This document shows positions 8,314-61,610 of a stretch of DNA of 64,000 bases, piece after piece; position 1 is the stretch's first letter; each line of letters starts with the position of its first letter. The stretch is taken from the NCBI GenBank assembly GCA_003450815.1, contig DMES01000002.1, positions 5,591-69,590 of the forward strand. Reading direction: 5' to 3'. The notes below the pieces were generated by a model. It searched no databases and had not been told where the DNA came from. It saw only the letters and a list, made by a program, of their open reading frames with translations. The stretch is from Elusimicrobiota bacterium. Its GTDB lineage: Bacteria > Elusimicrobiota > Elusimicrobia > Elusimicrobiales > UBA9959. A program made the translations under genes and the position numbers.

Positions 8314-9810
8314 ATGACCAATAATATTTTCGGCGTAATACTGGCCGGCGGCGCGGGAACCCGCCTTTGGCCGCTTAGCCGAAAGCTTCTGCCAAAACAA
8401 TTTTTGCGCCTTGGAAAAGAAGACTCCCTTTTTGAGAAAACAGTATCAAGAATAACCCCTTTGACCGGTATAAATAATATAGTAGTGGTAACAAATAAAC
8501 TGCACGCCTTCGGCTCGGGCTACCATCAGCTGAAAAAACTGCGAATGCTGATAGAGCCGGAAGCCAGGAACACAGCTCCCGCCATAGGTCTCGCCTGCCT
8601 GTATCTGCTTAAAATATGCGGCAATGACCCAGTTGCCGTGGTGCTTCCCTCAGACCATATGATAGCCGACCGAAAGGCTTTTCTTAAAGTTTTGTCTGTG
8701 GCGGTCAAAGAAGCAGAAAAGGGGAAAATCGTTACGCTCGGCATAACGCCCGATTCCCCTGAAACCGGTTATGGATACATTAAGAGGGGGAAACCGATAA
8801 CAGTCACAAGTCACAAGTCACAAGTCACAAGTCACAAGCCAGAAGTCACAGGTCACAGGTCACAGGTTGTAAACGGGGATTTCTGCGGAGAGGTTTTTAG
8901 TGTTGATAAATTCGTGGAAAAGCCGGATTTTGAGACGGCCCGTAAATATCTGGAAAACGGCGGTTATTACTGGAACGCGGGGATGTTTGTCTTTAAGGCT
9001 TCGGTTATGCTTGAGGAATTTAAAAAATATCTGCCCGCGGCTTATAACCTGCTTGAAAAAATAAATAAAGAGGCTTTTGAAGGTGAAAAAGTAAATTATG
9101 ACGGCCTTGCCACCTTGTTCTCAAAAATGCCGGCCATTTCCATAGACTACGCGGTAATGGAGAAGTCCGATCGGGTTTGCGTTATCCCTTCAAAATTCGG
9201 CTGGAGCGATGTTGGCAGCTGGCATTATTTCTATAGCGCGCTTCCCAAGGACGGGAACGGTAATGTTAAATTAGGAGACGTCCTGGCCCTTGACGCGCGG
9301 GACAACCTGCTCTATTCCGGCAGCAGGCTTGTAACGGCCATAGGTGTTAAGAACCTGGCCATTATAGAAACCAGCGATGCTATTCTGGTTTCGGAGATCA
9401 ACCACTCGCAGAAAGTTAAAAAGATCGTAGATGAGCTAAAAAAACAGAACAGGCGCGAGCTGGACGAGCATATAACCGTGGAGCGCCCCTGGGGTTCTTA
9501 CACGGTGCTTGACGACTTGCCCAACTACAAAGTTAAAAAACTTAAAATTTATCCGGGTCACAAAATAAGCTATCAATACCACAACCGTCGTTCAGAGCAT
9601 TGGTTTGTTGTCAAGGGTTCGGCTGAGGTTACCTTGGACGGGAAAAAGATGAAAATACGGAAAAACCGTCATGTGGACATACCGCTTAAAGCCAGACATA
9701 TGCTCTTTAATCCGGGCCCGGCGGACCTGGAGATAATAGAGGTCCAGTCGGGCGCTTATTTCGGCGAAGACGATATTATCCGTTTAAACGATTTCTACGG
9801 CAGGAAGTAG
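8314..9810 (+). CDS. manC: Mannose-1-phosphate guanylyltransferase / mannose-6-phosphate isomerase (bifunctional type), carrying a repeat-encoded insertion
   Basis: ILAGGAGTRLWPLSR, ETGYGYI, EKPD...YWNAGMFVF and a C-terminal cupin (WGSYTVL..., HRRSEHWFVV). Confidence 0.85.
   Translation: MTNNIFGVILAGGAGTRLWPLSRKLLPKQFLRLGKEDSLFEKTVSRITPLTGINNIVVVTNKLHAFGSGYHQLKKLRMLIEPEARNTAPAIGLACLYLLKICGNDPVAVVLPSDHMIADRKAFLKVLSVAVKEAEKGKIVTLGITPDSPETGYGYIKRGKPITVTSHKSQVTSHKPEVTGHRSQVVNGDFCGEVFSVDKFVEKPDFETARKYLENGGYYWNAGMFVFKASVMLEEFKKYLPAAYNLLEKINKEAFEGEKVNYDGLATLFSKMPAISIDYAVMEKSDRVCVIPSKFGWSDVGSWHYFYSALPKDGNGNVKLGDVLALDARDNLLYSGSRLVTAIGVKNLAIIETSDAILVSEINHSQKVKKIVDELKKQNRRELDEHITVERPWGSYTVLDDLPNYKVKKLKIYPGHKISYQYHNRRSEHWFVVKGSAEVTLDGKKMKIRKNRHVDIPLKARHMLFNPGPADLEIIEVQSGAYFGEDDIIRLNDFYGRK
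8803..8872 (+). repeat. Heptanucleotide tandem repeat inside manC
   Basis: GTCACAA x5 perfect (8803-8837), then gccagaa, GTCACAG x3 and gttgtaa. It encodes ...VTSHKSQVTSHKPEVTGHRSQVV... Confidence 0.9.
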
Positions 9811-9931
9811 AGAAAGATGCGTCGAGGCAAGGATGTAAAGACGCAAGGAGGGGTGAAAGAAAATATTCTCAAGACTGCTTTGCATTTTAAGTCTAAGTTG
9901 CTTTGCGTCTAAATTGCTATGCATCTAAAGG
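9811..9931. repeat. Two-armed 8-nt-unit repeat element (GCATAGCA/ATTTAGAG family) between manC and gmd
   Basis: The forward arm 9819-9858 reads gcgtcgag gcaaggat gtaaagac gcaaggag. The reverse arm 9875-9930 reads ctgctttg cattttaa gtctaagt tgctttgc gtctaaat tgctatgc atctaaag. Confidence 0.75.
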
Positions 9932-11099: not shown

Positions 11100-12053
11100 A
11101 TGAACAAAGCTTTAATAATAGGAGTAAGCGGCCAGGATGGGGCGTATCTGTCAAAATCACTCTTAGCAAAAGGCTATAGGGTCTTTGGTTCCTCAAGAGA
11201 GATTAATAACAATAATTTCACCAATCTAAAAACCCTTGATGTTTTTGACAAGGTTTCCGTGCTGCCGCTTAATCCCAGCAGGTTTTCCGAGGTTTTCGCG
11301 ATTGTTAAAAATGTCGTACCGGATGAAATTTATAATCTGGCCGGGCAAAGTTCGGTCAGCCAGTCTTTTTTGCGGCCGCTTGAGACCATAGAAAGCATAG
11401 CCTCTTCCACCGTCAATCTGCTAGAGGCGGTTCGCATTTCGGGGGCTCAGATCCGCTTTTACTCCAGCGTTTCCAGCGACTGTTTCGGAGGCACTGACTT
11501 TCACGCCGACGAAAGCACCTCTTTTAATCCCAAAAGCCCTTATGCAATAGCTAAAGCAATGGCTTTCTGGGCAACCAAAAATTACAGGCTGGCGTATGGT
11601 ATTTTTGCCTGTTCAGGCATACTTTTTAATCATGAGTCTCCCCTCCGGAACGAAAATTTTGTGACAGGTAAAATAATCAATACCGCACTAAGAATAAAAA
11701 ATGGCTCAAAGGAAAGGCTTAAGCTGGGCGATATTTCAGTCATAAGAGATTGGGGCTGGGCTGAAGAATTTGTGGAAAGCATGTGGCTGGTGCTTCAGCA
11801 GAAAAAACCTGATGATTTCGTGATTGCGACAGGTGAAAGTAATAGCCTTGAGGCACTGGTGCGCGAAGCTTTTCTCGCTTTCGGCCTTAATTGGAAAGAC
11901 CATGTGGATTTTGACGCTTCTTTTTTACGGCCGTTGGACATAAAGGCAGAATACGCGAACCCAGCCAAGGCTTCTGAAATACTCGGCTGGAAGGCGAAGT
12001 TTAAAATGCGAGATGTGGTGCATGCGTGGGGCAAGGCGTTGGGAAATATATAA
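11100..12053 (+). CDS. Second GDP-mannose 4,6-dehydratase-family protein (short form, variant active-site triad)
   Basis: [40 protein letters not shown] and SPYAIAKAMAFW (YxxxK kept). However, it has SSVSSDCFG where gmd has ASTSELFG. Confidence 0.6.
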   Translation: MNKALIIGVSGQDGAYLSKSLLAKGYRVFGSSREINNNNFTNLKTLDVFDKVSVLPLNPSRFSEVFAIVKNVVPDEIYNLAGQSSVSQSFLRPLETIESIASSTVNLLEAVRISGAQIRFYSSVSSDCFGGTDFHADESTSFNPKSPYAIAKAMAFWATKNYRLAYGIFACSGILFNHESPLRNENFVTGKIINTALRIKNGSKERLKLGDISVIRDWGWAEEFVESMWLVLQQKKPDDFVIATGESNSLEALVREAFLAFGLNWKDHVDFDASFLRPLDIKAEYANPAKASEILGWKAKFKMRDVVHAWGKALGNI

Positions 12054-12851: not shown

Positions 12852-13954
12852 AAGACAGGTTTTGGGCCGGGAAAAAGGTGTTCCTTACGGGCAATACAGG
12901 CTTTAAGGGAAGCTGGTTGTCGCTGTGGCTAAATAGTATGGGCGCCAAAGTTTATGGCTATGCCCTGAAGCCGCCTACCAGGCCCAGCCTTTTTGATCTT
13001 TGTTCCATCGGCAAAATAACAAACACAACCATCGCCGATATCCGCGACGCTGGCCGCCTTAAAAAGGCGCTTAAAACGGCCTTGCCCGATATAGTTATCC
13101 ATATGGCGGCTCAGCCGCTGGTACGAGAATCTTACCGTGCGCCGGCGGAAACCTACGATACCAACGTGATGGGGACTGTGAACCTGTTGGAGGCTGTGCG
13201 CGCCTGCGGCAGAGTGAGAGCGGTGGTAAATGTCACCACCGACAAGTGCTATGAGAACAAGGAACGTCCGATTGCCTATCGCGAAGGCGAGCCCCTTGGT
13301 GGTTATGACCCGTATTCCTCCAGCAAGGCCTGCTCCGAGCTGGTCACTTCCGCCTACCGCAACTCATTTTTCAACCCCATGTGCTATTCTCTTAACTCTA
13401 AACTCTTAACTCCCAACTCACAACTTTCGTCTCACCATGTGGCTTTAGCTTCGGCCCGCGCGGGCAATGTGATAGGAGGGGGAGACTGGGCGGACGACAG
13501 GCTTATACCGGATATAATACGGGCTGCTTTGAGCGGCAAAAAAGTCCTGATAAGGAACCCCCGCGCAATAAGGCCATGGCAGCATGTGCTTGAGCCTTTG
13601 AGCGGATACCTGCTTCTGGCGCAGAAACTTTACCGGAAGGGCCCCGCCTATGCCCAGGCCTGGAATTTCGGCCCGGTGGAGTCAGACGCTAAAGATGTGG
13701 AATGGATAGTAAAACGCATGTTCCAAAAGTGGAGTGTCGCTCCCGGCTATGTTTTGGACTCATCCCGCCATCCGCATGAGGCCCATTACCTTAAACTGGA
13801 TTCTTCAAAGGCGCGGCGCGCGCTGCTCTGGCGTCCGCGCTGGAATATCGGCCAGGCGATAGACCGGGTTATTGATTGGACAGAAGCCTATACGCGCAAA
13901 GAAGACATGCGAGGGGTCTGTTTAAGGCAGATAGAAGGATATGAAGAGGCATAG
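12848..13954 (+). CDS. rfbG: CDP-glucose 4,6-dehydratase, carrying a repeat-encoded insertion
   Basis: KKVFLTGNTGFKGSWLSLWL, YDPYSSSKACSELV and RAGNVIGGGDW. ATG 12848 overlaps the rfbF stop (ATGA). Confidence 0.85.
   Translation: MKDRFWAGKKVFLTGNTGFKGSWLSLWLNSMGAKVYGYALKPPTRPSLFDLCSIGKITNTTIADIRDAGRLKKALKTALPDIVIHMAAQPLVRESYRAPAETYDTNVMGTVNLLEAVRACGRVRAVVNVTTDKCYENKERPIAYREGEPLGGYDPYSSSKACSELVTSAYRNSFFNPMCYSLNSKLLTPNSQLSSHHVALASARAGNVIGGGDWADDRLIPDIIRAALSGKKVLIRNPRAIRPWQHVLEPLSGYLLLAQKLYRKGPAYAQAWNFGPVESDAKDVEWIVKRMFQKWSVAPGYVLDSSRHPHEAHYLKLDSSKARRALLWRPRWNIGQAIDRVIDWTEAYTRKEDMRGVCLRQIEGYEEA
13389..13437 (+). repeat. Heptamer-periodic tract inside rfbG
   Basis: ctcttaa ctctaaa ctcttaa ctcccaa ctcacaa ctttcgt ctcacca encodes ...SLNSKLLTPNSQLSSHH... 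Confidence 0.7.
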
Positions 13955-14031
13955 CAGTTTAGATGTAAAGCAATTTAGCGGCAGGGTCATTTAGAGGCAC
14001 AGCAGTTTGGAGGCACGAAGGCGTAGAAGAC
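13944..14031. repeat. 8-nt-unit repeat array (GCATAGCA/ATTTAGAG family) overlapping the rfbG stop
   Basis: From 13949 there are 10 consecutive units: gcatagca gtttagat gtaaagca atttagcg gcagggtc atttagag gcacagca gtttggag gcacgaag gcgtagaa. 13944-13970 is the inverted partner of 14459-14485. Confidence 0.8.
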
Positions 14032-14456: not shown

Positions 14457-14495
14457 GTCTTTACATCTAAATTGCTTTGCCTCTTTGCATCTATC
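14457..14495. repeat. Reverse-orientation 8-nt-unit repeat (same family)
   Basis: The sequence is gtctttacatctaaattgctttgcctctttgcatctatc. 14459-14485 is the reverse complement of 13944-13970 with 25/27 identity. Confidence 0.8.
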
Positions 14496-15245: not shown

Positions 15246-15265
15246 GAATCCGTTACTATGCAGGT

Positions 15266-15368
15266 AGACAGAATGCAGAAGTCAGAATACAGAATAGCCG
15301 CTCTCAATAAGCTTCCGATAGCTTTTGCCGCTTTCTGGCTTCTGAATTCTGACTCCTGACTTCCTGAA
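15266..15368. repeat. Two-armed heptamer repeat element
   Basis: The left arm reads cagaatg cagaagt cagaata cagaata. The right arm reads ttctggc ttctgaa ttctgac tcctgac, so the arms are complementary. Confidence 0.75.
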
Positions 15369-15387
15369 TAACCATACAAGGACCCCA

Positions 15388-16758
15388 ATGACCCGTGAAG
15401 AAATTCTAAACGCTGTAAGGGCCTACCATTCGGTTGCTTTTTCCGTTAAGCCTTTCAATAGGGAAAAGGACACTGTTCGCTACGCCGGAAGGGTGTTTGA
15501 CGAAAAAGAACTTGTGGCTCTGGTGGACTCGTCGCTTGATTTTTGGCTGACAGAAGGACGTTACGCCGAGAGTTTCGCCGAAAAGATCTCGGATTTTCTT
15601 GAAGTTGAAAATGTAATCCTGACAAATTCCGGCTCGTCCGCCAACCTGCTCGCGCTTTCGGCTCTGACATCAAAAAAACTAGGCAAAAAAAGACTTGTGC
15701 CCGGCGATGAGGTTATCACTGTCGCCGCGGGATTTCCTGCGACGGTGACTCCGATTCTGCAGAACGGTCTGATTCCGGTTTTTGTGGATGTGGAAATACC
15801 CACCTACAATGTAAATATTGAAGCCCTTAAAAAAGCTGTTTCACCTAAAACCCGCGCTGTCTTTCTAGCTCATACACTCGGCAACCCTTTTAATGTTGAA
15901 GAGGTAATAAAAATCGTTAAAGAACATGACCTGTGGCTTATAGAGGACAACTGCGACGCGCTCGGCAGCAGATATAGATGCGTAGAGGCGCAGCAATTTG
16001 GAGGCATAGGAACGTCCCCTCCGCGCCTCCACGCCTCCACGCCTCCACGCTTCCAGTACACCGGCACATTCGGGCATATCGCCACAATTTCTTTTTATCC
16101 AGCCCACCATATTACCACTGGTGAAGGCGGTGCCGTGGTGACCAATAACGAGCAATTGTCCCAGATCATACGCTCGTTCAGGGATTGGGGACGCGACTGC
16201 TACTGCGCCGGCGGGGAAAACAATACCTGCGGCAAGCGTTTCTCGCAGCAATTCGGTACGCTTCCCCCCGGATACGACCATAAATATGTTTATTCCGAGC
16301 TGGGCTACAACCTGAAAATGACCGATATGCAGGCGGCTATAGGTTCCGCACAAATGGACAAGCTTGAAATGTTCGGCGAGAAAAGACGCGGGAATTTCAA
16401 GCGTTACCAGAAGATGTTTTCCGCATACTCGCGCTTCCTTCTCCTTCCGGAGGCTACTCCTGGCTCGGATCCCTCCTGGTTCACCTATATTGTGTCCGTC
16501 AGGGACAACGCCCCCTTCAGTCGCAATGACCTGGTGACATTCCTGAACGAGCGCCGGATAGAAACAAGAAACATCTTCGCCGGCAATATGATTCGCCAGC
16601 CGGCTTTTATTGGCAGGCCCTGCCGTGTGCATGGGGAACTGAGCGTTACCGACTTCATCATGAACAATACTTTTTTCCTTGGAACTTATCCCGGTATGAC
16701 CGGCGATATGTTCGCCTATGTTGAAGACTGTGTCGCCGAATTTATGGGACGGTTTTAA
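15388..16758 (+). CDS. rfbH: CDP-4-dehydro-6-deoxyglucose 3-dehydrase (E1, PMP/[2Fe-2S] enzyme), carrying a repeat-encoded insertion
   Basis: GDEVITVAAGFPATVTPILQNGLIPVFVDV, FYPAHHITTGEGG (His in place of the aminotransferase Lys), DWGRDCYCAGGENNTCGKRF (Cys cluster) and SDPSWF. Confidence 0.85.
   Translation: MTREEILNAVRAYHSVAFSVKPFNREKDTVRYAGRVFDEKELVALVDSSLDFWLTEGRYAESFAEKISDFLEVENVILTNSGSSANLLALSALTSKKLGKKRLVPGDEVITVAAGFPATVTPILQNGLIPVFVDVEIPTYNVNIEALKKAVSPKTRAVFLAHTLGNPFNVEEVIKIVKEHDLWLIEDNCDALGSRYRCVEAQQFGGIGTSPPRLHASTPPRFQYTGTFGHIATISFYPAHHITTGEGGAVVTNNEQLSQIIRSFRDWGRDCYCAGGENNTCGKRFSQQFGTLPPGYDHKYVYSELGYNLKMTDMQAAIGSAQMDKLEMFGEKRRGNFKRYQKMFSAYSRFLLLPEATPGSDPSWFTYIVSVRDNAPFSRNDLVTFLNERRIETRNIFAGNMIRQPAFIGRPCRVHGELSVTDFIMNNTFFLGTYPGMTGDMFAYVEDCVAEFMGRF
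15971..16056 (+). repeat. 8-nt-unit palindromic repeat inserted in frame in rfbH
   Basis: The first arm gatatagat gcgtagag gcgcagca atttggag gcatagga belongs to the intergenic family. The second arm tccgcgcc tccacgcc tccacgcc tccacgct is largely complementary. It encodes RCVEAQQFGGIGTSPPRLHASTPPRFQ. Confidence 0.8.
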
Positions 16759-16842
16759 AGGCATAGATGCGTAGAGGCATAGCAGTTTAGAGGCATGGAG
16801 GCATAGCAATTTAGATGCGTAGAGGCGTAGCAATTTAGAGGT
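16759..16842. repeat. 8-nt-unit repeat array (10 units) after rfbH
   Basis: From 16761 the units are gcatagat gcgtagag gcatagca gtttagag gcatggag gcatagca atttagat gcgtagag gcgtagca atttagag. Confidence 0.85.
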
Positions 16843-58775: not shown

Positions 58776-60188
58776 ATGTTTGTTTTCAGATGGCGCAGGC
58801 TGTTTCTTTTTTTGGGCGACGCAGTATTGTTTTATGCGGCTTTGGCGGCCGCTCTTGTTGTGCGCCACTTTGGCCCGATTCCCTTTGATTTTTTTATTCA
58901 GCACATTAAGGTGTTTTCAGTTTTTTTGCCGGTCTGGGCCGGAATTTTTTACGTTATCGGTTTTTATGACATACGCCGTATAAATAAGCTTGTAAATCTT
59001 ATAAATTCCGCCCTTATAGCTTTCGCGGTTAATCTTGCCGCGGCCTCCGCTTTGTTTTACGCTTTTTATCTGCAACTCGGTCTTACGCCCAAAACCCATC
59101 TTTTCCTGACATTAAGCTTCCTGCATGTTTTTGCCGTAATCTGGCGCCGTATCTGGACCAGATTTTTTCTTTCAAAGCTGCTTGTGCAGAGGGTTTCTTT
59201 TTTGGGGACCAATTCCCTGCTTGAGGAAATCTGCAAAGATCTGCAAAAAAATCCGCACCTGGGTTTTGTTGTTACTCCGCTGCCGGACCTGAAGGCTAAA
59301 GACGCGCAAAGCGAAGCTTACTGGCGGCCGGACGGCAGAAGGGGCGGGGAACTTGCGCAAAAAATAGATCTGCTGGTGGTTGACGCTGATGATGCGGAGA
59401 AAAACCCCATGGTTGAAAGCCTGCTGCTGTCGACCGCCGTAATGGAAGAGATTCCTATAATCACCCATCTGGATTTTTATGAGGATCTTTACGGCAAGAT
59501 ACCCCCTGAGTATGCCGCCAAACCCAACTGGCTTTTAAGCAATGTGCTGCATAAAAATAACGCGCTGTACGCAGTAATCAAGCGCGGAATGGATATTGTC
59601 GCCGCTTCTTTCGTGTTGCTGCTTACTCTGCCTCTTCTGGCGGCGGTTTACTGCGCGCTGAAAATTTCCGGCATGGGCGGGATCCCGGTTTTCTTTTTTC
59701 AAAAGCGCGTGGGTTACCTGGGCAGGCGGTTCATTATATGGAAATTTAGGACCATGGTGCAGGGGGCCGACAAGGCCGGACCTCTTTACCGGGCATCCGC
59801 CGGCGACGACCGCGTAACACGTCTGGGCCGTTTTTTGCGCCGGACACGCCTGGATGAATTGCCGCAGTTGTGGAATGTCCTTAAAGGGGAGATGTCGGTT
59901 GTTGGGCCGCGGCCTGAATGGATACGCGAGGTGCGGATACTTGAACGCAGTGTGCCGCATTATCATCTGCGACACCTGGTTAAGCCTGGTGTCACCGGTT
60001 GGGCGCAAATACATCTGCAGGCAACCTCAAGCGAATTGGAATCCCTTGAAAAACTGCATTATGACCTCTACTATGTCAAGAACCTTTCGCTGGCGCTGGA
60101 TATAGGTATCATACTGCGCACCTTCCGCAGGGTTTTTCAGAAAGATGCTTCCTTTGCGGCAAGAGAAAAGCTGAAGGCTGAAGGCTGA
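58776..60188 (+). CDS. Polyprenyl-phosphate phosphoglycosyl transferase (WbaP-type initiating enzyme)
   Basis: N-terminal TM bundle and the C-terminal bacterial sugar transferase domain (KRGMDIVAA..., [50 protein letters not shown]). Confidence 0.85.
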
Positions 60189-60226
60189 AGGCTGAAGGCT
60201 GAAGGCTGAAGGCTGAAGGCTGAAGG
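60171..60226 (+). repeat. Perfect heptanucleotide tandem repeat (CTGAAGG)x8 spanning the stop codon
   Basis: 56 nt with no mismatch. The last residues ...LKAEG and the TGA stop (60186-60188) are encoded by the repeat. Confidence 0.95.
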
Positions 60227-60314
60227 AAGAGCATCCATTAGGTTCAATTTATTTTAATCGGCCCAATAGCCTTACTAAATGTCGGTTCATAGTGCTACAG
60301 CCGCATGTTGGTCC

Positions 60315-60339
60315 TGTAGTGGCAAAGCTTGCTTTGCCC
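60315..60339. repeat. Hairpin/TIR repeat family B, copy 3 (single end)
   Basis: tgtagtggcaaagcttgctttgccc contains the perfect palindrome ggcaaagc-tt-gctttgcc. Confidence 0.75.
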
Positions 60340-60359
60340 ACAGTCATTTACAAGACTTT

Positions 60360-61610
60360 ATGGCGGAAACATTAAAAATATCCCGGTTGGAAAAGGCTCT
60401 TGAATGGGCTGTCTATGTCTTCTCGGCTTCCGTCTTGCTTTCTATAACCGTAAGTCAGGCGGCCTTATTGCTTATTGCCATTTTGCTTGTTTGCCTTGGC
60501 GCAAAAGATAAAAACAAGGCCGGCGCATACTTTGGGCGGATAAAGGGAAGCGGGCTGCTTCTTCCTTTTTTCCTGTTTTTCATCGCTTATATCTTTTCCG
60601 CTATGGTCGGAGTAGACAGTAAGAACAGCTTTTCATTCCTTAATTCAGAACTCCTGAAAGCCCTGGCTTGCTTTGCGCTTATTGCGGCTGTGCCCGGCAT
60701 AAAGGTCTCCGCCGCGGGCGCGTGGTATGCCGCCGGCGCGACATTAGCGGGCGCGCTTGGTATCTGGCAATTTATACAAGGGAATATCTATTCAAACGGT
60801 ATTGATTTCGCCCGGGCGCACGGGAAAATGTACGCCGTTACCTATGGGGAAACAATGGCGGTGGCGCTGGTATTTTCTTTGCTGTGTTTTATAAATTCAA
60901 AAAAAGAAACCTTTGTGCGCAAAGCGTATTTTGCCTCCACGCTCATTCTGGCCGCGGCTTTTTCCATGAGCCTGAGCCGCGGTCCCGCTATAGGGCTTGC
61001 CTTCGCGCTGGGTATGCTGTATTTTTTTGAACCGCGTTCGCGCAAAATACTGCGCGTGGCCGCGGTGATCTGCTTTGCGGCGCTGGTCGCCATATTTTCA
61101 GCGGTTCCGTCTTTAAGGCTTAAGCTGATCTCTATCCCGCGCGGTATGGTCCAACTGGTATCCGGAAGCAAAAACGCCGCCGCCGGCGTAGACGACAGTT
61201 CATCTATACGCATGGAGATGTGGAAGGTTGGGGTTAAAATAATCCGCGACTATCCGCTTGGAGGCGTTGGGCCGGATAATGTCAAGCGGATATTCGGTTT
61301 TTATCATCCGGGGTTGTTTGACGGCAGATACAACTCAAATGATGTCCATAACCTTTATCTCCAGAAGACGGCCGAGTATGGCCTGCCAGGCGGCTTGATC
61401 TTTGTTTATCTCCTGGTTTCTTTTTTGCGGCTGGTATATAAAAAATATCGCGAATTCCGCAGCGTGGAAAGCCTATGGGCGTTGACGGCGCTGACGGGAT
61501 TTTACATTATGATGCTTACAGATTCGTCTTTCCATCTGCCCAGGGTGGCTATGAGCCTGTATTTCATGCTGGCGCTTTCGCAGACAACGGATAAACAGGC
61601 TGAAGGTTGA
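60360..61610 (+). CDS. O-antigen ligase / Wzy_C-domain family membrane protein
   Basis: About 10 TM segments, a loop with SLSRGPAIGLAFAL, and a later periplasmic loop with DVHNLYLQKTAEYGLPG typical of the family. ATG 60360 is used because the track start 60279 runs through the repeat. Confidence 0.6.
   Translation: MAETLKISRLEKALEWAVYVFSASVLLSITVSQAALLLIAILLVCLGAKDKNKAGAYFGRIKGSGLLLPFFLFFIAYIFSAMVGVDSKNSFSFLNSELLKALACFALIAAVPGIKVSAAGAWYAAGATLAGALGIWQFIQGNIYSNGIDFARAHGKMYAVTYGETMAVALVFSLLCFINSKKETFVRKAYFASTLILAAAFSMSLSRGPAIGLAFALGMLYFFEPRSRKILRVAAVICFAALVAIFSAVPSLRLKLISIPRGMVQLVSGSKNAAAGVDDSSSIRMEMWKVGVKIIRDYPLGGVGPDNVKRIFGFYHPGLFDGRYNSNDVHNLYLQKTAEYGLPGGLIFVYLLVSFLRLVYKKYREFRSVESLWALTALTGFYIMMLTDSSFHLPRVAMSLYFMLALSQTTDKQAEG

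What the first reader, a model, noticed from the sequence alone, without database searches (positions are those of the whole stretch)
8803..8872. Heptanucleotide tandem repeat inside manC: a candidate slipped-strand phase-variation switch
GTCACAA is repeated 5 times perfectly. It is followed by gccagaa, GTCACAG x3 and gttgtaa, giving 10 units (70 nt). The tract lies in the nucleotidyltransferase half of ManC, between the ETGYGYI and EKPD landmarks. It encodes a low-complexity loop (VTSHKSQVTSHKPEVTGHRSQVV) that ManC proteins as I recall them lack. Seven is not a multiple of three, so gain or loss of one unit would frameshift manC. That would switch off GDP-mannose supply and hence the GDP-fucose branch of this locus. 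This is the classic contingency-locus logic of surface-glycan genes.
Basis: partly seen in the sequence, partly recalled or inferred. Interest (0 to 1): 0.6.

Follow-up and report, generated by a model that had tools for sequence, protein, structure and literature searches.

The report
In-frame heptamer microsatellite in ManC loop
A real 7-base tandem repeat lies inside a sugar-activation gene of an uncultured Elusimicrobiota bacterium, but it looks like a tolerated in-frame microsatellite expansion in a floppy surface loop rather than a proven on/off switch.

Summary
Window 8803-8872 reads GTCACAA x5, GCCAGAA, GTCACAG x3, GTTGTAA, and lies inside an intact bifunctional manC (8314-9810).

The tract codes for a loop with a 7-residue period. 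The loop sits at the tip of a beta-hairpin between GYGYI and FVEKP. AlphaFold predicts it as disordered, and solved GMP structures lack it. Gain or loss of 1 or 2 units would truncate ManC at codons 184-198. Gain or loss of 3 units stays in frame.

The comparative evidence favours an ordinary explanation.
- Relatives carry heptamer arrays at the same loop: 1 unit, 4 units of the same GTCACAR, or 4 units of a different heptamer.
- Their copy number is fixed across up to 14 contigs, and they decay by point substitution.
- Other ManC lineages carry unrelated heptamer arrays at this loop.
- (GTCACAA)n occurs as in-frame SHKSQVT inserts in essential housekeeping enzymes (ValRS, PurL, FolC and others) in many phyla.
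- The window holds other 7-mer and 8-mer arrays, including an in-frame insert in rfbH.

No OFF allele and no copy-number variant was found. Reads could not be examined, so a phase switch is neither shown nor excluded (about 0.2).

Verdict: a slippage-prone microsatellite tolerated in a permissive loop. It is a new member of a known kind and of modest interest.

The parts
8314..9810 (+). manC, intact bifunctional mannose-1-phosphate guanylyltransferase/mannose-6-phosphate isomerase, 498 aa (= HAH30703.1, Elusimicrobiota MAG)
   Evidence: ORF. Pfam. TIGR01479 at 528.8 bits against a cut-off of 372.95. Identity to the NCBI record. AF2 mean pLDDT 91.3.
8782..8910 (+). Hypervariable hairpin-loop segment (residues 157-199) between GYGYI and FVEKP. 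It is 43 aa here and 13-21 aa in about 80% of homologues.
   Evidence: PDB GMPs 2x5s and 2cu2 align in two blocks that skip query residues ~169-193. AF2 gives coil 162-194 between strands 154-161 and 195-202, with 10-residue block pLDDT of 63/51/47.
8803..8837 (+). Five perfect GTCACAA units. With one flanking base on each side (8802-8838) this is a 37-nt perfect period-7 run.
8838..8844 (+). Degenerate unit GCCAGAA (2 substitutions) that interrupts the tract
8845..8865 (+). Three perfect GTCACAG units, a variant of the same heptamer
8866..8872 (+). Degenerate terminal unit GTTGTAA. It supplies the TAA stop met by the frame that a loss of 1 unit or a gain of 2 units would put in use.
60170..60226 (+). 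Context: a second long heptamer array, GCTGAAG x8.1 and perfect. It overlaps the stop codon of the priming glycosyl-phosphate transferase (58776..60188) and ends 53 nt upstream of the next ORF (60279). It has stops in all three + frames.
15268..15369 (.). Context: two imperfect heptamer arrays in inverted orientation (ACAGAAT x4 and TTCTGAC x4) in the intergenic region upstream of rfbH. Together they fold into a long hairpin.
   Evidence: Fold of 15255-15380: -39.1 kcal/mol, z = -4.6.
15976..16059 (+). Context: an in-frame ~24-aa insert in rfbH (residues 197-224). It is built from a copy of a dispersed 16-mer (15983-15998) and an octamer array CCTCCACG x4.8 (16018-16055).
   Evidence: PDB 3bcx aligns in two blocks that skip query residues 197-224.

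Best explanation
The tract is a recent slipped-strand expansion of a heptanucleotide microsatellite. It lies at the tip of a structurally permissive beta-hairpin loop of an otherwise intact ManC. The seed, GTCRCAG encoding V-[A/T]-G, is ancestral to this loop in Elusimicrobiota ManCs. In this lineage it grew to 10 registers, a net +6 units relative to the 4-unit relative. Only changes that sum to a multiple of three units (21 nt, 7 aa) survive selection, so the array is read through as a disordered loop with a 7-residue period (VTSHKSQ...). All three + strand frames of the unit lack stop codons. The array is one instance of a general phenomenon: heptamers are the commonest long SSR class in prokaryotes, and they persist inside genes where a loop tolerates them. 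As a by-product the gene is frameshift-prone, because gain or loss of 1 or 2 units truncates it at codons 184-198. Such mutants are most likely purged rather than exploited. Shown here: the anatomy, the frame arithmetic, the loop disorder, the arrays in relatives, and the occurrence of the same heptamer in housekeeping genes. Inferred: slippage as the generating mechanism, neutrality of the loop, and absence of selection for switching.
For: (1) Relatives carry heptamer arrays at the same loop position. L082 (80% aa identity) has a single GTCGCAG. L205-L208 (P0048, 45% identity) have GTCACAG GTCACAA GTCACAA GTCACAG. L083 and L084 (79% and 77%) have a different heptamer, GCCATAN x4. The window loop is 14 aa (6 units) longer than the P0048 loop.
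(2) Short arrays are stable and decay by substitution. P0048 is identical on 14 contigs. P0124, in the same 90%-identity cluster as P0048, has the same number of units but reads GTCACAG GCCGCAA GTTACAG GCCGCAA GTCTAGA.
(3) The loop is a length-variable site. It spans 13-61 aa among 119 homologues, and 23 of them have loops of 24 aa or more. Lag-7 residue identity is 0.134 in long loops against about 0.065 at other lags (the long-loop set still included the window's own loop through its duplicate entry P0121). Unrelated heptamer arrays occur in the loop in L007 (AGCAAAG), L011 (CCAGCCT) and L211 (TYACGAY x8).
(4) The loop is predicted disordered at a hairpin tip, and solved GMPs lack it.
(5) (GTCACAA)3 occurs in at least 120 loci of many phyla. 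Of 128 arrays, 32 lie inside long open frames as SHKSQVT-type inserts in PurL, ValRS, FolC, MiaA, RnfC, a Cu-ATPase and 2-oxoacid:ferredoxin oxidoreductase (the same site in two genomes), among others.
(6) The window itself has other 7- and 8-mer arrays and a second in-frame SSR insert, in rfbH.
(7) Literature: heptamers are the most abundant long SSR class (Mrazek 2007, as cited in PMC4679880 and PMC4692102). SSRs are suppressed mid-gene and enriched near N-termini where frameshift switching is inferred (Lin & Kussell 2012, as cited).
Against: Five perfect units followed by three perfect units show ongoing slippage. Each single-unit slip gives a null allele, which is exactly the raw material of phase variation. 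A heptamer array cannot grow by single steps without passing through OFF states, unless slips of 3 units occur. Period-7 arrays are enriched in the ManC loop: 4 of the 25 period-7 arrays found in 466 kb lie in about 1% of the sequence, and no other period was seen there. A purely neutral model does not obviously predict that. Both in-frame non-triplet SSRs in the window lie in nucleotide-sugar genes of a glycan locus. Population-level repeat counts could not be examined.
Confidence: 0.6

Rival explanations
1. This is a true contingency locus. The heptamer tract is maintained as a reversible ON/OFF switch. Slippage by 1 or 2 units truncates ManC, shuts off GDP-mannose supply and changes the surface glycan, for example to escape phage or grazers. 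Further slippage restores the frame.
For: The unit is not a multiple of 3, and there are 5+3 perfect units. Simulated gain or loss of 1 or 2 units gives stops at codons 184-198, before the EKP motif. The gene heads a large glycan locus. Heptamer arrays recur at this same loop in several ManC lineages. There are precedents for heptanucleotide SSRs in or near phase-variable genes, including a mid-ORF (AATTTTG)14 in H. influenzae hmw1A (PMC2651432).
Against: No OFF allele or copy-number variant was seen in any accessible assembly. The tract is interrupted and mid-gene. Relatives' arrays are short (1-4 units), fixed in number across up to 14 contigs, and diverge by substitution. The same heptamer sits in frame in essential genes such as ValRS and PurL, where switching would be lethal, so a coding heptamer array does not by itself imply a switch.
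Confidence: 0.2
2. The low-complexity loop is selected at the protein level. A flexible, Ser/Thr/His/Lys-rich excursion would tune ManC activity, oligomerisation or partner binding, and the DNA repeat would simply be how it arose.
For: Long loops at this site recur in about 19% of homologues. The insert is kept in frame in an otherwise highly conserved enzyme.
Against: Loop sequences are unrelated between lineages and differ almost completely among relatives at 77-84% identity. The loop is predicted disordered with no secondary structure. The same peptide occurs in unrelated enzymes, which points to the DNA-level process and not to a ManC-specific function.
Confidence: 0.08
3. The array was imported as a copy of a dispersed, possibly mobile, heptamer-repeat family of the STRR or TAACTGA type. 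It would not have been generated in situ.
For: GTCACAA arrays are widespread across phyla, and some genomes carry many copies. The window holds a dispersed 16-mer family that has entered the rfbH coding sequence.
Against: Within the 64-kb window, GTCACAA repeats occur only in manC. Relatives have 1 and 4 units of the same heptamer at exactly the same position within a shared loop motif, V[A/T]GK.SA[Y/H]G. This indicates expansion in situ from an ancestral seed.
Confidence: 0.07
4. The tract is an assembly artefact, with the repeat number mis-assembled or the tract chimeric.
For: Logan k=31 contigs of SRR6482189 break inside the perfect tract.
Against: The tract is only 70 nt and is interrupted, so single reads span it. 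The identical 498-aa protein is called on three contigs held under JGI, NCBI and ENA. The reading frame is intact with every conserved ManC motif downstream. The break in the Logan contigs is what a k=31 de Bruijn graph does with a 37-nt period-7 run, and the two contig ends are 100% identical to the window.
Confidence: 0.03

Closest known systems
Long simple sequence repeats (LSSR) of the heptanucleotide class in prokaryotic genomes (Mrazek et al. 2007, as summarised in PMC4679880 and PMC4692102), including cyanobacterial heptamer repeats and Beggiatoaceae TAACTGA repeats
   Same: Head-to-tail heptamer arrays of a few to about 10 units. One genome carries several arrays with different units, mostly intergenic or overlapping stop codons (window 60170, 15268, 15333). 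Within ORFs, only the orientation without stop codons survives, and it reads through as a 7-residue periodic peptide. MacGregor reports this for 'reverse' TAACTGA repeats in 11 ORFs.
   Different: This array is mid-gene in a conserved enzyme and not at a protein terminus. The GTCACAA unit is not dispersed within the window. It appears to have grown in situ from an ancestral seed that relatives share.
SSR-mediated contingency loci of host-adapted pathogens, such as Haemophilus influenzae tetranucleotide loci, the heptanucleotide repeats at hmw1A/hmw2A and a TonB-dependent receptor homologue (PMC2651432)
   Same: A non-triplet unit lies inside a gene of surface-glycan biosynthesis. A single-unit slip shifts the frame and truncates the product.
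   Different: Those tracts are long, pure and variable between strains, and OFF alleles have been observed. They are usually 5'-proximal or in promoters. Here the tract is interrupted and mid-gene, no variant or OFF allele is known, and relatives' arrays are short and fixed.
Bifunctional type II PMI/GMP (ManC/AlgA/XanB family, TIGR01479); solved GMP structures 2x5s (Thermotoga maritima) and 2cu2 (Thermus thermophilus)
   Same: Full domain architecture and all conserved motifs are present, with a score well above the curated cut-off.
   Different: The hairpin between GYGYI and FVEKP is about 25-30 residues longer than in the solved enzymes and in most homologues.

Membership tests
SSR-mediated phase-variable (contingency) gene | Tandem repeat with a unit length that is not a multiple of 3, inside the ORF or promoter, such that a one-unit change switches expression | tested here: met
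   The 7-nt unit occupies codons 164-187. Simulated gain or loss of 1 or 2 units gives stops at codons 184-198, and gain or loss of 3 units stays in frame.
SSR-mediated phase-variable (contingency) gene | Repeat-number polymorphism within populations or between strains, including OFF (frameshifted) alleles | tested here: inconclusive
   The exact protein is on 3 contigs only, probably from the same data. Logan contigs of SRR6482189 are 100% identical but break inside the tract, as expected for k=31, so the copy number cannot be read. No truncated or length-variant homologues were found.
SSR-mediated phase-variable (contingency) gene | Long, uninterrupted (pure) tract that is also kept pure in related strains | tested here: not met
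   The tract is 5 perfect + 1 degenerate + 3 perfect + 1 degenerate units. Relatives have 1-4 units. The P0048 and P0124 arrays have the same count but differ by point substitutions.
SSR-mediated phase-variable (contingency) gene | Tract near the 5' end of the ORF or in the promoter (typical but not obligatory) | tested here: not met
   The tract starts at codon 164 of 498. For the general N-terminal bias, see Lin & Kussell 2012 as cited in PMC4692102.
Heptanucleotide long-SSR / STRR-like repeat class | Head-to-tail heptamer copies (at least 3) far beyond chance | tested here: met
   TRF score 98. Observed 7 against 0.20 expected 14-mer matches. No period-7 arrays appear in random sequence.
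Heptanucleotide long-SSR / STRR-like repeat class | Several heptamer arrays per genome, mostly non-coding | tested here: met
   Window arrays at 60170-60226, 15268-15296 and 15333-15369, plus weaker ones. Ten of the 32 TRF rows have period 7.
Heptanucleotide long-SSR / STRR-like repeat class | The same unit dispersed at many loci of one genome (the STRR/TAACTGA family property) | tested here: not met
   GTCACAA repeats occur only at manC within the 64-kb window. The rest of the MAG was not available.
ManC / GMP-PMI (TIGR01479) | NTP_transferase + beta-helix + PMI cupin architecture, scoring above the curated cut-off, with conserved motifs intact | tested here: met
   (528.8 bits against 372.95). 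The invariant columns G12 G13 G15 R17 ... F200 E202 K203 P204 ... are conserved. AF2 gives pLDDT 91.3 and pTM 0.89.

The most novel reading that the evidence does not exclude
The GYGYI-FVEKP hairpin loop of ManC is a cross-phylum hotspot at which heptanucleotide arrays are repeatedly created and maintained because they make GDP-mannose supply mutable, either ON/OFF or in 7-residue length steps. On this reading they are contingency loci operating in free-living, uncultivated groundwater bacteria (Elusimicrobiota, Nitrospirota and others) and not only in host-adapted pathogens.
Probability: 0.12. Interest if true: 0.65.

Novelty: new member of a known kind. Interest (0 to 1): 0.3.

Why it matters
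If the tract is only a tolerated microsatellite, it is a clean textbook example of how non-triplet SSRs survive inside conserved enzymes. They need three-unit frame arithmetic, a strand with no stop codons and a disordered hairpin tip. It is also a warning that a 7-mer repeat in a glycan gene does not by itself indicate a contingency locus.

Two side observations may be worth a systematic survey. First, the same ManC loop carries different heptamer arrays in several lineages. Second, (GTCACAA)n encodes SHKSQVT inserts in housekeeping proteins across phyla. A survey of intragenic heptamer arrays in metagenome-assembled genomes would address both.

If read data showed out-of-frame alleles at appreciable frequency, this would extend SSR-based phase variation of surface glycans to uncultured environmental phyla.

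Tried and rejected
(1) The search for related loci with the ManC protein on metagenome contigs. It returned 80 loci at only 40-46% identity and not the window's own species. This was no use for strain-level repeat counts. The loci were reused as a background set for the TRF and loop analysis.

(2) A second protein search with the N-terminal 215 aa, to catch frameshifted fragments or length variants. It returned nothing above 65% identity and did not even list the known 80% relatives. The hits of 181-226 aa that were read all run past the EKP motif, so they are cut by contig ends and not by the loop. Uninformative.

(3) Cluster look-up. The only other member of the window protein's cluster is a 101-aa contig-end fragment of a relative.

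(4) Neighbour-gene look-ups to find contigs with a different manC allele. These found Logan contigs that break inside the tract. I considered this as possible evidence of heterogeneity and rejected it. A 37-nt perfect period-7 run repeats its 30-mers, so a k=31 graph branches there regardless.

(5) L061 and L077 failed my loop motif and were checked as possible OFF alleles. They are simply EYGYI and AYGYI variants with intact loops.

(6) The idea that the window and P0048 share the GTCACAR array by recent common descent was rejected. An NJ tree without the loop puts them in distant ManC clades. The shared loop motif V[A/T]GK.SA[Y/H]G suggests the same ancestral seed expanded twice. Loop exchange by recombination is not excluded.

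(7) The 'GDP-fucose branch' was not confirmed. The 317-aa gene after gmd is a GMD-family paralogue with no Fcl match.
Full report
OBSERVATION. The sequence at 8803-8872 reads GTCACAA x5, GCCAGAA, GTCACAG x3, GTTGTAA. TRF calls 8802-8864 as period 7, 9.0 copies, 91% matches, score 98. Two-unit probes match 7 times, all within the tract, against 0.20 expected from shuffles. Apart from three 3-copy tetramers, the only perfect arrays of at least 3 copies in the window are this tract (two blocks), a GCTGAAG array at 60170 and an octamer in rfbH. Markov-1 random sequences give none for periods 7-12.

The tract occupies codons 164-187 of ORF 8314..9810 (+), 498 aa. This ORF is a complete bifunctional ManC. 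It has the Pfam domains NTP_transferase, ManC beta-helix and MannoseP_isomer, and it scores 528.8 bits on TIGR01479 against a cut-off of 372.95. The protein is identical to HAH30703.1 from an Elusimicrobiota MAG. It is also called on JGI metagenome 3300009296 contig Ga0103681_1000161.

ANATOMY. The tract sits between GYGYI (residues 152-156) and FVEKP (200-204).
- Solved GMP structures (2x5s, 2cu2) align in two blocks that skip query residues ~169-193.
- An AlphaFold2 model built on 78 homologues has pLDDT 91.3 and pTM 0.89. It places beta-strands at 154-161 and 195-202, with an unstructured excursion at 162-194. The 10-residue block pLDDT values there are 63, 51 and 47. The insert is therefore the tip of a beta-hairpin and is predicted disordered.
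- All three + strand frames of the tract are open, and all three - strand frames contain TGA.
- Adding or removing 1 or 2 units gives stops at codons 184-198, upstream of the EKP motif and of the whole PMI half. Adding or removing 3 units keeps the frame.

RELATIVES. The closest homologues (77-80% identity, 449-478 aa) lack most of the insert. Their DNA is informative.
- L082 has a single GTCGCAG at the corresponding place.
- L083 and L084 have four copies of a different heptamer, GCCATAN.
- A more distant Elusimicrobia ManC (P0048, 45% identity) has GTCACAG GTCACAA GTCACAA GTCACAG at the same position. This protein is identical on 14 contigs from several samples.
- P0124 belongs to the same 90%-identity cluster as P0048. 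It has the same number of registers, but they have diverged by point substitution: GTCACAG GCCGCAA GTTACAG GCCGCAA GTCTAGA.

The window loop is 14 aa (6 units) longer than the P0048 loop. An NJ tree built without the loop places the window clade and the P0048 clade far apart. Even so, P0001, P0048 and P0074 share the loop motif V[A/T]GK.SA[Y/H]G. I infer an ancestral seed, GTCRCAG, that expanded independently. Loop exchange by recombination is not excluded.

The loop and array position is old and shared. The 5+3 perfect units in the window are a recent lineage-specific expansion.

A RECURRENT SITE. Among 119 homologues the loop ranges from 13 to 61 aa, and 23 of them have loops of 24 aa or more. 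Long loops show excess residue identity at lag 7 (0.134 against about 0.065 at other lags). That long-loop set still included the window's own loop through its duplicate entry P0121.

Arrays seen directly in the loop include TYACGAY x8 in L211, AGCAAAG x4.4 in L007 and CCAGCCT x4.9 in L011. In 466 kb of 83 ManC loci, TRF found 25 period-7 arrays, and 4 of them lie in the ~60-nt loop. No array of any other period lies there. Three of the six coding period-7 arrays with at least 3.5 copies are in this loop. The loop is therefore a hotspot for heptamer arrays. All loops examined were in frame.

A GENERAL PHENOMENON. The genomes include Omnitrophota, Acidobacteriota, Cyanobacteria, Fibrobacter, Dialister, Psychrobacter and others.

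Of 128 arrays, 32 lie in open frames with at least 40 open codons on each side, always in the stop-free orientation. Going by recognisable sequence features of the translated frames, these appear to be SHKSQVT-type inserts in the following proteins (assignments by my own inspection, no family search was run on them):
- PurL (L096, two arrays)
- valyl-tRNA synthetase (L182)
- FolC (L201)
- MiaA (L117)
- RnfC (L154)
- PurQ (L150)
- a Cu-ATPase (L119)
- a xanthine-dehydrogenase-family protein (L142)
- 2-oxoacid:ferredoxin oxidoreductase alpha, at the same site in two genomes (L097, L146)
- an FAD/Fe-S oxidase, with 9.9 units (L092)

Several of these are essential genes. A heptamer array inside an ORF therefore does not in itself signal a switch.

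The window shows the same tendency.
- GCTGAAG x8.1 overlaps the stop codon of the priming glycosyl-phosphate transferase.
- Inverted heptamer arrays upstream of rfbH fold into a strong hairpin.
- rfbH carries an in-frame insert of about 24 aa relative to 3bcx. It is built from an octamer array and a copy of a 16-mer that is dispersed at 8 sites in the window.

LITERATURE. Heptanucleotide repeats are reported as the most abundant long-SSR class in most prokaryotic genomes, with polymerase slippage proposed as the cause (Mrazek et al. 2007, as summarised in PMC4679880 and PMC4692102). TAACTGA repeats in Beggiatoaceae occur within ORFs only in the stop-free orientation and mostly at protein termini. 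SSRs are generally suppressed mid-gene and enriched near N-termini, where frameshift switching is inferred (Lin & Kussell 2012, cited). Heptanucleotide SSRs with phase-variation potential are known in H. influenzae, including a mid-ORF (AATTTTG)14 with a frameshift in hmw1A (PMC2651432). I found no paper describing heptamer arrays in ManC or in Elusimicrobiota or Omnitrophota.

TEST OF THE SWITCH HYPOTHESIS. I looked for copy-number or OFF alleles.
- The exact protein is on three contigs, probably from the same data.
- Its 90% cluster holds only a contig-end fragment.
- A search with the N-terminal 215 aa was uninformative.
- Exact look-ups of the flanking rmlB and gmd products found Logan contigs of SRR6482189 that are 100% identical to the window. 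One ends at 8829 and the other starts at 8810, so both break inside the perfect run. A 37-nt period-7 run repeats its 30-mers, so a k=31 graph must branch there. The break is therefore not evidence of heterogeneity, but it does identify the read sets in which alleles can be counted.

Population-level variation remains untested.

CONCLUSION. The most likely explanation (about 0.6) is a slippage-generated heptamer microsatellite that is tolerated because it is in frame, free of stop codons and located in a disordered hairpin tip. It is a member of the known heptanucleotide long-SSR class.

An evolved ON/OFF contingency switch remains possible (about 0.2). In its favour are the perfect sub-blocks, the null consequence of single-unit slips, the glycan context and the enrichment of period-7 arrays at this loop. 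Against it are the interruption of the tract, its mid-gene position, the fixed and decaying arrays in relatives, the absence of OFF alleles, and the presence of the same repeat in essential genes.

Less likely explanations are a protein-level role for the loop (0.08), import of a dispersed repeat (0.07) and an assembly artefact (0.03).

The 'GDP-fucose' detail is not supported. The gene after gmd is a second GMD-family paralogue and not Fcl.

Noticed in passing
window 60170-60226: A perfect GCTGAAG x8.1 array, the highest-scoring tandem repeat in the window. It contains the stop codon of the priming glycosyl-phosphate transferase (58776..60188) and ends 53 nt upstream of the next ORF (60279..61610). 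It has stops in all three + frames. It could modulate downstream expression or serve as a control locus for stutter when counting manC alleles.
   Followed up: partly
window 15268-15369: Two imperfect heptamer arrays in inverted orientation (ACAGAAT x4 and TTCTGAC x4) flank a ~36-nt spacer between an MBL-fold gene and rfbH. Window 15255-15380 folds at -39.1 kcal/mol, z = -4.6 against shuffles.
   Followed up: partly
window 15976-16059 (rfbH residues 197-224): RfbH (CDP-4-keto-6-deoxyglucose 3-dehydrase) carries an in-frame insert of about 24 aa relative to PDB 3bcx. It coincides with an octamer array CCTCCACG x4.8 (16018-16055) and a copy of a dispersed 16-mer (15983-15998). This is a second non-triplet SSR insert in a nucleotide-sugar enzyme of the same locus.
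   Followed up: partly
window 9912-9927(-), 13944-14007, 14470-14485(-), 15983-15998, 16772-16835: A dispersed 16-mer family, TAGAGGCATAGCAGTT (two octamers), occurs at 8 sites against 0.37 expected. It forms short arrays in the intergenic regions after manC, rfbG and rfbH, and occurs once inside rfbH. Its nature is unknown; it could be REP-like or a small mobile repeat.
   Followed up: partly
L092, L096, L097, L117, L119, L142, L146, L150, L154, L182, L201 (array coordinates): (GTCACAA)n occurs as in-frame SHKSQVT-type inserts in proteins that look by inspection like housekeeping enzymes (PurL, ValRS, FolC, MiaA, RnfC, PurQ, a Cu-ATPase, OFOR alpha and others). The genomes belong to Omnitrophota, Chloroflexi, Bacteroidota, Cyanobacteria and other phyla. 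Two Omnitrophota genomes have it at the same site of OFOR alpha. I do not know whether this heptamer is special, because no other heptamer was scanned as a control.
   Followed up: partly
L211 5001-6725 (P0049, GCA_964463135.1): This ManC has a 61-aa loop containing TYACGAY x8 plus a purine-rich heptamer-like stretch (GGCGAAA...). It also has an N-terminal extension with the same SRITIHD-type peptide. This suggests that an upstream array of the same heptamer is read into the called ORF, or that the start is mis-called.
   Followed up: no
window 11100-12053: The gene after gmd is a 317-aa second GMD-family protein. It scores 282 bits on TIGR01472, below the 415 cut-off. Its best PDB hits are GDP-mannose 4,6-dehydratases, with a weaker hit to the Rmd reductase 2pk3 and no Fcl match. 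The GDP-sugar made here may therefore not be GDP-L-fucose.
   Followed up: partly
L213 end / L215 start (Logan SRR6482189 contigs _610 and _52): Independent k=31 assemblies of the same strain (0 mismatches over 9.7 kb) break exactly inside the perfect GTCACAA run, at window 8829 and 8810. This is an expected de Bruijn artefact. It means manC is split and uncalled in such assemblies, and it points to the read sets needed for allele counting.
   Followed up: yes
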